From assembly GCA_902628565.1 (NCBI GenBank), contig CACONR010000002.1, positions 13,732-77,731 on the forward strand: a DNA stretch of 64,000 bases, written 5' to 3'. Of the stretch, positions 8,463-11,864 are shown one piece after another. Made by a program: the position numbers and the translations under genes. The notes under the pieces are model-generated. The model was not told where the DNA came from. It did no database searches and worked only from the letters and a program-made list of their open reading frames with translations. Positions within the stretch are counted from its first letter, which is position 1, and every line of letters begins with the position of its first letter. The DNA comes from an uncultured Pelagibacteraceae bacterium (lineage in GTDB: Bacteria > Pseudomonadota > Alphaproteobacteria > Pelagibacterales > Pelagibacteraceae).

Positions 8463-9115
8463 TGAATGAAATTCAAAGAGCTAAGATAGTTTCACAAATT
8501 TTAGACAAAACTTATCCAAAAATATATGTGCCTCTCAAAAGTAGAAATGTTTTTACACTTCTGATTTCAGTTCTTCTTTCTGCACAATGTACTGATGTAA
8601 ATGTCAATAACGTAACTAAAAATATCTATCCAAAATTTTATAAACCTAAACACTTTGTTAAATTAGGAAGAAAAAAAATTGAAAAATTAATAAAAAAAAT
8701 TGGCATTTTTAGAATTAAAGCGAAAAGTATTTTCAATTTGTCTAAAATACTAATCAAAAAACACAGTGGCAAAGTACCAAAAACTTTTGAGGAATTAGAA
8801 AACCTTCCTGGAGTAGGTCATAAGACTGCTGGAGTTGTAATGTCTCAGGGCTTTGGGTATCCTGCATTTCCAATTGATACTCATATACACAGATTGGCTC
8901 AAAGATGGGGTTTAACAAACGGAAAAAATGTTGTTCAAACTGAGAAAGATTTAAAAAGACTTTTTCCTAAAAAAAGTTGGAACAAACTTCACCTTCAAAT
9001 TATATATTATGGAAGAGAATATTGTAAAGCAAGAGAGTGTTATGGTGTGACTTGTAAAATTTGTACCAGTTGTTATCCTAAAAGAAAAAAACCTATTAAA
9101 ACCAAAAAAGCATAA
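8462..9115 (+). CDS. nth: Endonuclease III
   Basis: LLSAQCTD, HhH motif LPGVGHKTA, PIDTH, C-terminal Cys cluster. Confidence 0.93.
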   Translation: MNEIQRAKIVSQILDKTYPKIYVPLKSRNVFTLLISVLLSAQCTDVNVNNVTKNIYPKFYKPKHFVKLGRKKIEKLIKKIGIFRIKAKSIFNLSKILIKKHSGKVPKTFEELENLPGVGHKTAGVVMSQGFGYPAFPIDTHIHRLAQRWGLTNGKNVVQTEKDLKRLFPKKSWNKLHLQIIYYGREYCKARECYGVTCKICTSCYPKRKKPIKTKKA

Positions 9116-9116
9116 T

Positions 9117-10046
9117 ATGAAAATTCTTGGTATTGGAAATGCAATTATTGATGTCATTTGTAAAGTAGAGGAAAATTTTCTAACTGAAAATAATCTTACA
9201 AAAGGCACTATGAAATTAATTTTTGATGATAAAGAATTCAAAAATATTTTAGCGAAACTTAAAATAGAAAAAACTGTTTCAGGAGGTTCTGTTGCTAACT
9301 CAATCGTTGGTCTATCTCAACTTAAAAATGAAGTCGGATTTATAGGAAAAATATCTGATGACGATTTTGGTGCTAAATATGAAGAAGGATTAATAAAAGA
9401 AAATGTGAATTATTTTTATTCTAAAAAAAAAGAGAGTTTTCCTACGGGATCTTGTCTCATTTTAGTAACACCTGACTCTGAGAGGACAATGTGTACTTTT
9501 TTAGGTATTGCAGGAAAAATTGGTGAAATTGATATAAATGAAGAGCTAATAAAAAAAAGTGATTTGATTTTTTTAGAAGGTTATTTATGGGATGAAGGGG
9601 AACCTAAAAAAGCATTTGAAAAAGCAATTAAGCATTCCAACAAAACTGCAATGTCATTATCTGATTTATTCTGTGTAGAAAGGCACAAAAAAAATTTTTT
9701 AATCTTAGTTAAAGAAAAACTAGATCTTATTTTTGCAAATGAGAGTGAAATTATGTCACTTATAGATACAAAAAATTTTAATGATGTTGTCTCTTTTACT
9801 AAAGAAATAAAAAAGCATATTATAATTACCCGTGGGGAAAAGGGAGCAATTTCTATAATTGGGGACAAACTAATTGAGGTAAAGGCTAAAAAAAATCTCA
9901 CAATAAAGGATTTAACTGGTGCAGGAGATCTTTTTGCAGCTGGTTACTTACATGGTGTCATCAACAATCTATCTAGTGAAAAATGTTTAGAGAAGGGGAT
10001 TGAATTATCATCAAAAGTAATTCAACAAATTGGTGCGAGGCTTTAA
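9117..10046 (+). CDS. PfkB-family carbohydrate/adenosine kinase
   Basis: GIGNAIID, SGGSVAN, ERTM, LEGYLWD, DLTGAGDLFAAG motifs. Confidence 0.88.
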   Translation: MKILGIGNAIIDVICKVEENFLTENNLTKGTMKLIFDDKEFKNILAKLKIEKTVSGGSVANSIVGLSQLKNEVGFIGKISDDDFGAKYEEGLIKENVNYFYSKKKESFPTGSCLILVTPDSERTMCTFLGIAGKIGEIDINEELIKKSDLIFLEGYLWDEGEPKKAFEKAIKHSNKTAMSLSDLFCVERHKKNFLILVKEKLDLIFANESEIMSLIDTKNFNDVVSFTKEIKKHIIITRGEKGAISIIGDKLIEVKAKKNLTIKDLTGAGDLFAAGYLHGVINNLSSEKCLEKGIELSSKVIQQIGARL

Positions 10047-10162
10047 CTCTTTTTTCTCTTAAAACTACCTTTACCTTTTTTTGGCTTTATTACCCTGGGC
10101 TTATATTTTCTTGAAAAAAGCTCTCTTGCAAACTTATTTTTTTTTGTCAACTTCGTAGCCAT
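10043..10162 (-). CDS. ArfA-like alternative ribosome-rescue peptide, 39 aa (not in ORF track)
   Basis: MATKLTKKNKFARELFSRKYKPRVIKPKKGKGSFKRKKS; carries the KKGKGS(Y/F)xR hallmark of ArfA; an alternative TTG start lies at 10150. Confidence 0.7.
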   Translation of the reverse strand: MATKLTKKNKFARELFSRKYKPRVIKPKKGKGSFKRKKS

Positions 10163-10700
10163 CGTCCTTGCTTAAAATAAAACTCTCATCTTTAAAAACT
10201 TTTGAAATTTTTTTTCTTAATCTATAAATATGTGTTTCGACAGTATGTGTCTCTAACTGAGATTGATATCCCCAAACATTTGATTGTAATTCTTGAATTT
10301 TTACGGGTTTTTTGGATTTTGATAAGTATATTATTGAACTTATTTCTTTTTCTGTAAGTTTAAGTTTATTATCAGTTGAAGACATTTCACGTGAATTTAT
10401 ATTAAATATATAACTTCCTATTAAAATCTCAGATTGTTCATGAAAATTTTTTTTTATAAATTCAATATTAATTTTTTCTAATATTTTAAATATTGAAACA
10501 GGAAATTTGTTGAAAATTATTTGATTATCTAATCCTGGTATTTCATTTTTCGTTAATATTAAACACTTTGAATTAGGGTTTAACTTTAACAATTCGTGTT
10601 TATTAATTTTCTCAAAATTAAAATTTATATCTTTTTTAATTTCTTCAAAAATCTTATATAATTCATCAAGTTCATAAATAACAAGATTATGAGTATTCAT
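10134..10700 (-). CDS. OmpR-type winged-helix regulator, CenR-like, with degenerate receiver domain
   Basis: LTEKE...VWGY...THTVETHIYRLRKKI C-terminus; located beside the L,D-transpeptidase/yggS/leuS genes. Confidence 0.75.
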   Translation of the reverse strand: MNTHNLVIYELDELYKIFEEIKKDINFNFEKINKHELLKLNPNSKCLILTKNEIPGLDNQIIFNKFPVSIFKILEKINIEFIKKNFHEQSEILIGSYIFNINSREMSSTDNKLKLTEKEISSIIYLSKSKKPVKIQELQSNVWGYQSQLETHTVETHIYRLRKKISKVFKDESFILSKDDGYEVDKKK

Positions 10701-10713
10701 ATAAGAAGATAAT

Positions 10714-11208
10714 ATGATAATTTATATTAAAAATAAACATTCACTTAAAATTGATGATTTTTATTTCAAGTGTAGCATTGGTAAAAATGGATTAAGTAAA
10801 AACAAAAGAGAGGGTGATAAAAAAACACCAATTGGTTGTTTTTGTATTGAAAAATTATATTACAGATCAGATAGGATTAAAAAACCTATAACCAAATTAA
10901 AATGTATTAAAATTGAGAAAAAAATGGGTTGGTGTGATGATCCATTAGATCAAAAAAATTATAATAAGTTAATTAACTTAGAAAAGAAAATTAAATGTGA
11001 AAAACTTTACCGACAAGATCATAAATATGATTTGATGATACCAATAAAGTATAATTATTTAAGACCTATCAAATTTAAAGGAAGTTGTATTTTTATACAC
11101 GTAACAAATGATTATAAACCAACCGCAGGATGTATAGCACTACAAAAAAAAGATTTTTTAATAATGTTAAAATTATTAAATAAAAAAACAAAAATTCAAA
11201 TAAACTAA
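10714..11208 (+). CDS. L,D-transpeptidase (YkuD) family protein
   Basis: KREGDKKTPIG, GWCDDP, GSCIFIH...PTAGCIAL (catalytic His/Cys). Confidence 0.85.
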   Translation: MIIYIKNKHSLKIDDFYFKCSIGKNGLSKNKREGDKKTPIGCFCIEKLYYRSDRIKKPITKLKCIKIEKKMGWCDDPLDQKNYNKLINLEKKIKCEKLYRQDHKYDLMIPIKYNYLRPIKFKGSCIFIHVTNDYKPTAGCIALQKKDFLIMLKLLNKKTKIQIN

Positions 11209-11864
11209 CTTCTTGGTCCAAAAATATTAGATCCTATCCTGACATAAGTAGCAGAATTTTTTATAGCATCTAGATAATCTGAAGACATTCCCATACTAAG
11301 TTCATTAAAATTTAGATTTGTATTTAAAATATTCATCTCCTTAAAAAAGATATCTGACGATTTTTCTAAGGGCGGAATGCACATTAAGCCAACCACATCT
11401 AGATCAAGAGTTTTACAATACGAGTATAGATGAGTCACTGATGATTTGCTTACTCCGTTTTTTTGCTGTTCATCTCCAATATTTACCTGAATAAAAATTT
11501 TTACTTTTTTTTTTTGTTTTTGTTGTTCTTCTGATATTTTTTTAGCAAGCTTTTCGCTGTCGACTGAATGAATAAAATCAAATATTTTTACTGCTAATTT
11601 TACTTTATTTGTTTGTAACTTACCTATTAGATGTAATTTTAGGTTCTTATTATTTGTCTTAACATCACTCCACTTTTCAATTGCCTCTTGAACTTTATTT
11701 TCACCAAAATCCAAATGGCCGTATTCTATTAAGGGTGAAATTTTATCCATTCCAAAAGTCTTTGATACTGCGATAATTTTTGGTACTTTACTAATTTTAA
11801 GGGTATCTAAAATTAAATTAATTTTTTTTTGGATATCTAATAAATTTTGAATAGTTTTATGCAT
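11205..11864 (-). CDS. yggS: PLP homeostasis protein YggS
   Basis: IAVSK, FGENKVQE, HLIGKLQTNK, GLMCIP, LSMGMSSD, VRIGS motifs. Confidence 0.96.
   Translation of the reverse strand: MHKTIQNLLDIQKKINLILDTLKISKVPKIIAVSKTFGMDKISPLIEYGHLDFGENKVQEAIEKWSDVKTNNKNLKLHLIGKLQTNKVKLAVKIFDFIHSVDSEKLAKKISEEQQKQKKKVKIFIQVNIGDEQQKNGVSKSSVTHLYSYCKTLDLDVVGLMCIPPLEKSSDIFFKEMNILNTNLNFNELSMGMSSDYLDAIKNSATYVRIGSNIFGPRS

What the first reader, a model, noticed from the sequence alone, without database searches (positions are those of the whole stretch)
10043..10162. Unannotated 39-aa ArfA-like ribosome-rescue peptide with its own stop codon
Seen: the minus strand carries an ORF missed by the track, MATKLTKKNKFARELFSRKYKPRVIKPKKGKGSFKRKKS*. 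It overlaps the 3' end of the upstream regulator, and its stop shares TTAA with the convergent kinase gene. Known: ArfA has the KKGKGSYxR motif that enters the empty mRNA channel, recruits RF2, and is characterised mainly in beta/gammaproteobacteria. E. coli ArfA is made from a non-stop, RNase III-cleaved mRNA and is controlled by tmRNA tagging. Inference: this is a minimal, pre-truncated ArfA with no hydrophobic tail and no non-stop control. It could be a differently regulated backup rescue pathway in a streamlined alphaproteobacterium.
Basis: partly seen in the sequence, partly recalled or inferred. Interest (0 to 1): 0.72.

Follow-up and report, generated by a model that had tools for sequence, protein, structure and literature searches.

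The report
Born-short ArfA relative in SAR11
This ocean bacterium carries a real, conserved 39-codon gene related to the ribosome-rescue factor ArfA; it ends at an ordinary stop codon without E. coli's self-limiting tail, and it likely helps a release factor free ribosomes stuck on broken messages, though that activity is untested.

Summary
The ORF is real: 10043-10162 (-), 39 aa, overlapping an OmpR-type regulator by 29 nt and sharing TTAA with a PfkB kinase. It matches Pfam ArfA just under the cut-off (24.5 vs 25.5 bits). A profile matches 161 of 200 same-family genomes, and the core is under purifying selection (dN/dS about 0.11). It ends 6 residues after KGKGS (5-11 in relatives; 16-49 in 49 non-alpha ArfAs), with no in-gene terminator in 33 of 33 SAR11 loci. 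The host has tmRNA, SmpB, RF1 and RF2; ArfB was not found in 9 Pelagibacterales genomes. Best reading: an RF2-recruiting nonstop-ribosome rescue factor outside tmRNA feedback (0.62). Against: E. coli's essential Ala18 is Lys/Arg, Leu19 and Leu24 are charged, and the peptide stops at position 44, between inactive (40) and active (47) E. coli truncations. It is dispensable: closed genomes show clean deletion. Two papers report no arfA in Alphaproteobacteria, yet NCBI already labels Pelagibacter copies ArfA, a pelagiphage copy is in print, ArfT is a short own-stop precedent, and this scan found it before on other DNA. New variant of a known kind.

The parts
10043..10162 (-). ArfA-like ORF, 39 aa plus TAA stop; start probably ATG 10162, alternative TTG 10150 (35 aa)
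   Evidence: PF03889 E=1.9e-5, 24.5 bits against cut-off 25.5
10055..10081 (-). K28-R36, KKGKGSFKR, equal to E. coli K33-R41; predicted to sit in the empty mRNA entry channel
   Evidence: K28, K29, G30, G32, S33 and R36 invariant in 30 of 30 loci; role of the E. coli segment from PMC8012679 section 7
10088..10105 (-). Y20-I25, equal to E. coli F25-E30; predicted aromatic plug and beta-strand added to RF2
   Evidence: Y/F in 33 of 33 at position 25 and I/V in 32 of 33 at position 29; E. coli contacts
10106..10138 (-). N9-K19, divergent N-terminal segment: N14 and L20 positions kept; Ala18 position is R (K in most relatives); Leu19 and Leu24 positions are E and K
   Evidence: this half is closer to KGKGS-less DUF7230-like peptides (hhalign prob 97.6) than to gamma ArfA (29.2)
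10043..10046 (.). TTAA shared by the stop codons of the ArfA-like ORF (-) and the PfkB kinase (+)
10134..10700 (-). Upstream OmpR/PhoB-type winged-helix regulator, 188 aa; its last 29 nt overlap the ORF and its GAT-GGC-TAC codons supply the ATG; likely co-transcribed
   Evidence: PF00486 E=3.5e-11; same upstream neighbour in 55 of 60 loci; co-transcription is inferred
9117..10046 (+). Convergent PfkB-family carbohydrate kinase, 309 aa
   Evidence: PF00294 E=7.5e-41; kinase-type end found convergent in 49 of 60 loci

Best explanation
This is a conserved protein-coding gene for a natively short ArfA-family peptide that likely rescues ribosomes stalled on stop-less mRNA by recruiting the cell's RF2, and that is predicted to be made independently of tmRNA activity. 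Shown: the gene, its selection, its family, its own stop 6 codons after KGKGS, the lack of an in-gene terminator, and a host with tmRNA, SmpB, RF1 and RF2 but no detected ArfB. Inferred by homology: the basic KKGKGSFKRKK end enters the empty mRNA channel, Y20 plugs the RF2 pocket (I/F/W kept at E. coli V198/F217/W319), residues 22-25 add a beta-strand to RF2, and RF2's GGQ hydrolyses the peptidyl-tRNA. Inferred from anatomy: E. coli's feedback cannot work the same way, because a cut ahead of the stop would remove the few basic residues the peptide has after the motif. Its level is likely set by transcription of the upstream regulator operon and translational coupling. The altered N-terminal half would have to stabilise open RF2 by contacts other than E. 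coli's Ala18/Leu19/Leu24.
For: All 30 aligned same-genus peptides hit PF03889 and no other Pfam family at E<=0.001; several relatives pass the cut-off. The only PDB matches are six E. coli ArfA chains, gap-free though weak (E 0.08-0.22). Profile-profile match to gamma/beta ArfA is 97.5% probable, E=6e-12, gap-free over 29 columns. dN/dS is about 0.11. A profile matches 161 of 200 family genomes, 11 of them weakly. Positions equal to N14, L20, F25 (Y/F) and R41 are kept in 33 of 33 SAR11 cores. Own RF2 keeps I198/F217/W319 and SPF, while own RF1 has V/A/T. tmRNA (permuted, tag ANESYAIAA), SmpB, RF1 and RF2 are present. The ArfB model passes its cut-off in 0 of 9 Pelagibacterales genomes, but in another alphaproteobacterium (176.8 bits) and 2 of 14 controls. 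In-ORF terminator-like hairpins: 0 of 33 SAR11 loci, against 3 of 5 other alphaproteobacterial loci, the E. coli control and 20 of 38 parsed phylum-wide loci. ArfT (40 aa, no terminator or RNase III site before its stop) and BrfA (different N-terminus) show that other architectures rescue ribosomes.
Against: Ala18, whose change to Thr abolishes RF2 activation, is A/S in 38 of 38 distinct non-alpha cores but K/R/Q/E in 33 of 33 SAR11 cores. Leu19 and Leu24 of the RF2-binding patch are D/E/N in 32 of 33 and K/R in 33 of 33. The N-terminal 26 residues alone are not significantly like E. coli ArfA (3,787 of 20,000 shuffles score as high). The peptide ends at E. coli position 44: E. coli 1-40 is inactive, 1-47 is active, and the eLife paper states that shortening beyond 47 inactivates. 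There is no KH motif. The gene is absent from 39 of 200 family genomes, including closed ones with a clean deletion in 5 of 5 loci examined. No translation or strand-specific transcription evidence was obtained.
Confidence: 0.62

Rival explanations
1. It binds the empty mRNA channel but does not activate a release factor, like the E. coli A18T mutant. It would act as a plug or modulator that protects idle or stalled ribosomes in a slow-growing oligotroph, or that competes with tmRNA-SmpB.
For: Conservation is concentrated in the RNA-binding C-half; Ala18, Leu19 and Leu24 equivalents are charged. E. coli A18T still binds and recruits RF2 without activating it. The same form is common in phages (199 confirmed among 600 pattern hits), which could gain from controlling ribosomes.
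Against: The RF2-facing aromatic (Y/F, 33 of 33) and the beta-strand hydrophobic (I/V, 32 of 33) are kept. Ala is shifted one place to position 17 in 28 of 33, which may rebuild a core. BrfA activates RF2 with an unrelated N-terminus.
Confidence: 0.17
2. It rescues ribosomes but, like ArfT, works with either RF1 or RF2, the loss of the Leu19/Leu24 patch having relaxed its specificity.
For: The patch that explains RF2 specificity in E. coli is two-thirds lost. ArfT is 40 aa with its own stop and uses both factors.
Against: ArfT lacks a hydrophobic residue at the F25 position, whereas this family keeps Y/F. Own RF1 lacks the F217 and W319 equivalents.
Confidence: 0.1
3. It is a small basic nucleic-acid-binding protein of a phage-shared, DUF7230-like stock with a role outside translation quality control; the KGKGS likeness would be convergent or vestigial.
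For: The N-half is closer to KGKGS-less peptides (prob 97.6) than to gamma ArfA (29.2); 3 of 10 of those peptides hit DUF7230 weakly. SAR11 and viral cores intermix in a low-resolution tree. The gene is dispensable.
Against: Gap-free register with gamma ArfA and invariant K34-G35-x-G37-S38-[FY]-x-R41. Related alphaproteobacterial and phage copies carry ArfA-style in-gene terminators (3 of 5 and 7 of 62), which ties the clade to nonstop-mRNA control.
Confidence: 0.09
4. It is a chance lysine-rich ORF of an AT-rich genome, or a by-product of the two overlapping neighbours.
For: The genome is about 29% GC, the ATG lies inside the regulator's conserved Gly-Tyr codons, and no strong Shine-Dalgarno site at normal spacing is seen.
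Against: dN/dS 0.11, no stops or indels in the core, synonymous Gly codon spread. The core lies outside both neighbours' frames. The gene is found beside other neighbours and in phages.
Confidence: 0.02

Closest known systems
E. coli ArfA (YhdL; Pfam PF03889; PDB 5MGP, 5MDV, 5U4I, 5H5U, 7OJ0)
   Same: Gap-free alignment of residues 7-37 with 12-42; N14, L20, aromatic 25, R28, V29, KKGKGS, aromatic 39 and R41 kept; also downstream of a regulator and sharing a 4-nt stop overlap with a convergent gene.
   Different: 39 vs 72 codons; ends at position 44; no hydrophobic tail, no in-gene hairpin, no KH motif; Ala18, Leu19 and Leu24 replaced by charged residues; activity untested.
ArfT (PMC6299226, passages read)
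   Same: About 40 aa, basic KGKGS-like end, no terminator or RNase III site before the stop, often missed by annotation.
   Different: ArfT has KKGGSTNKK and no hydrophobic residue at the F25 position, uses RF1 or RF2 and is thought unrelated to ArfA. This peptide matches PF03889. No direct sequence comparison with ArfT was run.
BrfA of Bacillus subtilis (PMC8012679 section 7)
   Same: Small basic RF2-recruiting factor whose N-terminus differs from ArfA's.
   Different: BrfA is made from a nonstop mRNA through an in-gene terminator and has the KH motif; it gave no PDB sequence match here.
Pelagiphage HTVC027P gp30 and database-labelled Pelagibacter ArfA (PMC12753301; MDC0151111.1)
   Same: PF03889-positive small proteins of SAR11 and its phages, labelled ArfA by domain match.
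   Different: Labels only; no test of function and no discussion of the missing tail or regulation in the passages read.
DUF7230 (PF23876)-like KGKGS-less peptides
   Same: Share the N-terminal NPIAKxLRTPK[YF] type segment.
   Different: They lack KGKGS and do not hit PF03889; function unknown.

Membership tests
ArfA (PF03889) | Match to the family profile above the curated cut-off | tested here: inconclusive
   24.5 bits vs 25.5, E=1.9e-5; 30 of 30 aligned members hit at E<=0.001; 5 of 6 SAR11 relatives scored singly pass the cut-off; no NCBIfam hit
ArfA (PF03889) | KGKGS[YF]xR channel-binding motif in a basic C-terminal segment | tested here: met
   KKGKGSFKR; G, G, S and R invariant in 30 of 30
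ArfA (PF03889) | Aromatic residue at F25 and beta-strand 27-30 that bind RF2 | tested here: met
   Sequence level only: Y/F 33 of 33, I/V 32 of 33 at position 29
ArfA (PF03889) | Small residue at Ala18 and hydrophobic Leu19/Leu24 of the RF2-activating N-terminal minidomain | tested here: not met
   K/R/Q/E at 18, D/E/N at 19 (32 of 33), K/R at 24 (33 of 33); A/S at 18 in 38 of 38 non-alpha cores; importance
ArfA (PF03889) | Length at least to the minimal active E. coli form (residue 47), with the KH motif | tested here: not met
   Ends at position 44; no His45; four basic residues at positions 40-43
ArfA (canonical, tmRNA-regulated) | Synthesis from nonstop mRNA through an in-gene terminator or RNase III hairpin ahead of a dispensable tail | tested here: not met
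   0 of 33 SAR11 loci with an in-ORF hairpin plus U-tract; folding z=0.0 in the window vs -3.7 for E. coli; 0 terminators in 8900-11400; tail 5-11 aa. RNase III is encoded, so cleavage of an antisense duplex is not excluded
ArfA (PF03889) | Cognate RF2 with the V198/F217/W319 pocket | tested here: met
   I, F, W in own RF2; V, A, T in own RF1
ArfA (PF03889) | RF2- and GGQ-dependent peptidyl-tRNA hydrolysis on nonstop ribosomes | not testable with these tools
   Needs biochemistry
ArfA (PF03889) | Synthetic lethality with loss of ssrA/smpB | not testable with these tools
   Needs genetics
ArfT | KKGGSTNKK-type motif, no hydrophobic residue at the F25 position | tested here: not met
   Motif is KKGKGSF and Y20 is present
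ArfT | Activity with both RF1 and RF2 | not testable with these tools
   Needs biochemistry
ArfB (YaeJ) | Own GGQ catalytic domain | tested here: not met
   No GGQ, no PF00472 match
DUF7230 (PF23876) | Match to the Pfam profile | tested here: not met
   No hit for this peptide at E<=1 or for 30 members at E<=0.001

The most novel reading that the evidence does not exclude
SAR11 and its phages share a distinct ArfA subfamily that is constitutive rather than a tmRNA-gated backup and that switches on a release factor through a different N-terminal module (Ala17-Lys18, DUF7230-like). It is the family's only non-tmRNA rescue route in place of ArfB, releases truncated proteins without a degradation tag, and is swapped between host and phage. 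This would overturn the published view that Alphaproteobacteria lack arfA and define the smallest working ArfA.
Probability: 0.3. Interest if true: 0.7.

Novelty: new variant of a known kind. Interest (0 to 1): 0.46.

Why it matters
Two surveys report no arfA in Alphaproteobacteria (0 of 2,376 genomes, PMC11633108 Table 1; 'not present in Alphaproteobacteria', bioRxiv 2022.11.21.517365). Yet about four in five genomes of this very abundant marine family carry a short relative under purifying selection, and ArfB, found in 2,022 of those 2,376 genomes, was not detected in the 9 tested here. If active, it is a natural minimal ArfA that tests which residues really open RF2, and it is a rescue route outside the tmRNA feedback thought to define ArfA. 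A 39-mer can be synthesised and assayed directly. The surprise is limited: databases already label these peptides ArfA, a pelagiphage copy is in print, and ArfT already shows a short own-stop rescue factor.

Tried and rejected
Complex prediction of the peptide (alignment A1) with own RF2 residues 90-340: no answer, score 0.01 against a mark of 0.32; it is no evidence either way. Metatranscriptomes: only contigs were available. Contigs of four RNA runs cover the ORF (for example 9969-10119 with 2 differences), but contigs give no strand, ends or level and may come from the convergent kinase mRNA or from DNA, so expression is not shown. tblastn of the peptide against 50,697 GenBank phage records found no match at E<=10, although IMG/VR holds many relatives; low-complexity filtering and short length are likely reasons. 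PHROGs gave only phrog_37108 at E=0.014. The promoter scan gave 13 sites against 15.9 expected, so nothing. A FastTree tree on 29 columns of 128 distinct cores put SAR11, viral and other alpha cores together apart from the 38 non-alpha cores with support 0.63 only, and mixed SAR11 with viral rows; no donor or direction is claimed. An IQ-TREE run timed out. The idea that the KGKGS-less peptide replaces the gene where it is lost mostly failed: it is in 2 of 17 near-closed genomes lacking the gene, in 0 of 21 having it as a separate copy, and 15 of 17 have neither. One regular expression was mis-spaced and returned 0; it was not used. The terminator scan is my own crude one (hairpin of -6 kcal/mol or better before a T-rich 8-mer); AT-rich short tails have little room to score, 5 of 80 viral loci were not parsed and 13 duplicates were dropped, and 12 of 50 phylum-wide loci were not parsed. 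ESM Atlas look-alikes of a stored homologue were ArfA-labelled clusters at 0.95, which adds nothing independent. Schaub 2012 and Garza-Sanchez 2011 were not held, so truncation data come from a review and an eLife paper. PMC4131195 and PMC6514570 passages held nothing on this family.

Full report
Observation. window:10043-10162 (-) gives the 39-residue peptide and TAA exactly as reported. The regulator ORF 10134-10700 (-) overlaps its first 29 nt and has an OmpR/PhoB winged-helix domain; the PfkB kinase 9117-10046 (+) is convergent and shares TTAA at 10043-10046. The host is taken to be a SAR11 (Pelagibacteraceae) genome. This is inferred from about 29% GC, a permuted tmRNA whose tag ARAGORN matches to Pelagibacter, and NCBI names of close homologues. 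The assembly is 73.6% complete.

It is a gene. The single peptide finds a match in 30 of 36 same-genus genomes and 0 of 24 genomes of a second family. A 20-row profile matches 161 of 200 same-family genomes of at least 85% completeness; 11 of these, all in one genus, are weak (E 3e-6 to 5e-4), and the two examined are a KGKGS-less variant. That tally includes one genome flagged unpublished (G856). Over a gap-free 32-codon core in 30 loci, pS is 0.675 and pN 0.162 (JC dN/dS 0.11), pN<pS in 435 of 435 pairs, with no stops; third-position heterozygosity is 0.42 against 0.18 and 0.14. These pairs share ancestry and are not independent. The antisense frame that shares third positions shows the expected echo (0.28) but has stops in 8 of 30 sequences. 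In 60 loci (30 and 30 best; one genome occurs twice) the regulator lies upstream in 55 and the kinase end downstream in 49. In another genus the gene sits beside a different neighbour. The ATG at 10162 is preferred because the two closest relatives (85% and 82% identical) have no start codon at the downstream position, but the window's TTG at 10150 matches the start of many others.

Family. Pfam gives only ArfA, E=1.9e-5, at 24.5 bits against a cut-off of 25.5, which may explain why such genes are missed. All 30 aligned members hit it. NCBIfam gives nothing. The six PDB matches are all E. coli ArfA, gap-free but weak. The pairwise score with E. coli ArfA beat 20,000 of 20,000 shuffles, but the N-terminal 26 residues alone did not (3,787 shuffles as high). 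Profile against profile, SAR11 versus 28 non-alpha cores gives probability 97.5 over 29 gap-free columns, while the N-halves alone give 29.2. The family is large: 7,976 of 7,997 scored candidates passed E<=0.01, and 679 representatives at 50% identity passed E<=0.001.

What is kept and what is lost. In E. coli the basic C-terminus blocks the mRNA channel, residues 27-30 add a beta-strand to RF2, F25 with L19 and L24 binds RF2 V198/F217/W319, and A18T still recruits RF2 but fails to activate it (PMC8012679, section 7 read whole; PMC5378476, passages). Among 33 distinct SAR11 cores, N14, L20, Y/F25 and R41 are kept in all and I/V29 in 32. Position 18 is K/R/Q/E in all 33 (A/S in 38 of 38 distinct non-alpha cores), position 19 is D/E/N in 32, and position 24 is K/R in all; Ala sits at 17 instead in 28. 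The 52 distinct viral cores share this pattern. Own RF2 keeps I/F/W at the pocket and SPF; own RF1 does not. The peptide ends at E. coli position 44. E. coli 1-47 is active, 1-40 is not, and further shortening from 47 is said to inactivate. It has no KH motif but four basic residues at 40-43.

Born short. Residues after the GS number 5-11 in 60 SAR11 loci (exactly 6 in 43), 16-49 in 49 of 49 non-alpha loci, 8-62 in 5 other alphaproteobacterial loci and 4-72 in 80 viral loci. A hairpin followed by a U-tract lies inside the ORF in 0 of 33 SAR11 loci, 3 of 5 other alpha loci, the E. coli control, 7 of 62 distinct parsed viral loci and 20 of 38 parsed of 50 phylum-wide loci. The scan is crude and short AT-rich tails have little room to score. 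The stronger argument is anatomical and inferred: with six codons between motif and stop, a cut ahead of the stop would remove the residues that bind the channel, so tmRNA-gated production of an active truncated form is unlikely. RNase III is present and the convergent kinase could supply antisense RNA, as described for arfA and mscL in E. coli, so antisense control of the message is not excluded.

Rescue inventory. The own genome has tmRNA, SmpB, RF1 and RF2. The ArfB model passed its cut-off in 0 of 9 Pelagibacterales genomes, 6 of them single-contig, but in G336 and in 2 of 14 controls. PF00472 gave at most two full matches in each of 62 genomes of the order; the one third match was partial. 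The gene is not essential: 39 of 200 family genomes had no match, and in 5 of 5 closed ones examined the regulator's stop lies 1-35 nt from the next gene. Of 17 near-closed genomes without it, 15 also lack the KGKGS-less relative. Outside the family it is rare in the class: PF03889 passed its cut-off in 6 of 301 genomes, 2 of them same-family.

Phages. A capped scan of IMG/VR confirmed 199 relatives among 600 pattern hits and kept 80. Neighbours from 13 of these loci (40 proteins) were scanned: they include a T4-like clamp loader, translation repressor and DNA polymerase, endolysins and an integrase, while 3 loci gave no hit at the threshold used. A 29-column tree mixes SAR11 and viral rows with weak support, so no direction of transfer is claimed.

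Mechanism. I commit to an RF2-recruiting rescue factor for nonstop ribosomes, made at a level set by its operon and not by tmRNA (0.62). Shown: gene, selection, family, own stop, missing tail, partner inventory. Inferred: translation, channel binding, RF2 activation, regulation. The main rival is binding without activation (0.17), then RF1/RF2 promiscuity (0.10), a non-ribosomal role (0.09) and chance (0.02).

What is known. A review restricts ArfA to a subset of beta- and gammaproteobacteria. A survey found arfA in 0 and arfB in 2,022 of 2,376 alphaproteobacterial genomes (PMC11633108, passages with Table 1), and a preprint says it is not present in the class (passages). Against novelty: NCBI names a 35-aa homologue 'alternative ribosome rescue factor ArfA [Candidatus Pelagibacter sp.]' and JGI gives similar labels; pelagiphage HTVC027P gp30 is called ArfA by Pfam match (PMC12753301, passages and a supplement search; raw counts there are low, 66 at most); and ArfT is 40 aa without a terminator or RNase III site before its stop (PMC6299226, passages). 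Eight literature searches showed no paper describing or testing a SAR11 chromosomal ArfA, but the library lacks most subscription papers and two primary ArfA papers, and I did not read the genome tables of the two surveys. This scan reported the same gene in another SAR11 genome and many phage copies; my reading was formed before those look-ups.

Verdict. Observation confirmed, interpretation partly supported. It works most likely like ArfA, but it fails the canonical membership tests on Ala18/Leu19/Leu24, minimal length and nonstop control, so I file it as a distinct short subfamily related to ArfA: a new variant of a known kind, interest 0.46.

Noticed in passing
L164-L175 (second family of the order), L177, L266, L267, L271: Small basic peptides of 35-48 aa share this family's N-half but lack KGKGS; 3 of 10 hit DUF7230 weakly. 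Found in 12 of 24 second-family genomes. In the 38 genomes they never occurred beside the ArfA-like gene. Possible ribosome-binding cousins of unknown function.
   Followed up: partly
L201, L203, L204, L210-L212, L214, L215, L217, L218, L222, L223: Many non-alpha ArfA ORFs with 16-22 residue tails end in -AA, like an ssrA/ClpXP degron (degron knowledge recalled). This suggests a third control mode, a built-in degradation tag.
   Followed up: no
L160, L161, L162 (other alphaproteobacteria); L087, L092, L109 (viral): ArfA-like ORFs with strong in-gene hairpin plus U-tract (-18 to -25 kcal/mol): canonical nonstop control appears to exist in some alphaproteobacteria and phages.
   Followed up: partly
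L086, L094-L096, L119, L123: Viral proteins of about 105-116 aa fuse the ArfA-like segment to a 70-aa basic C-terminal domain (phrog_17747 match in L094).
   Followed up: partly
L091, L121: The viral ArfA-like gene lies between the two clamp-loader genes of a T4-like replication module, upstream of a translation repressor and DNA polymerase.
   Followed up: no
L261, regulator 3' end: In a closed genome lacking the gene, an ATG-started 9-codon stub resembling the family's first residues remains in the regulator's last codons, consistent with deletion of the rest.
   Followed up: no
L032:825-880 (G000:C7): Own prfB has a 23-codon first frame ending CTT TGA T followed by the long frame, the programmed +1 frameshift site.
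   Followed up: no
L034, 3' of the ArfA-like stop: A sequence resembling a TPP riboswitch core (CTGAGA...CCTGA; motif recalled) follows the gene and precedes a transporter-like ORF. Not checked against Rfam.
   Followed up: no
window:10134-10700 (-): The regulator is only 188 aa; it has the winged-helix domain but no receiver-domain hit in Pfam, so it may be an atypical or orphan response regulator.
   Followed up: no
window:7519-7689 (+): A 56-aa hydrophobic ORF between dnaJ and dapB-like genes with no significant Pfam family.
   Followed up: no
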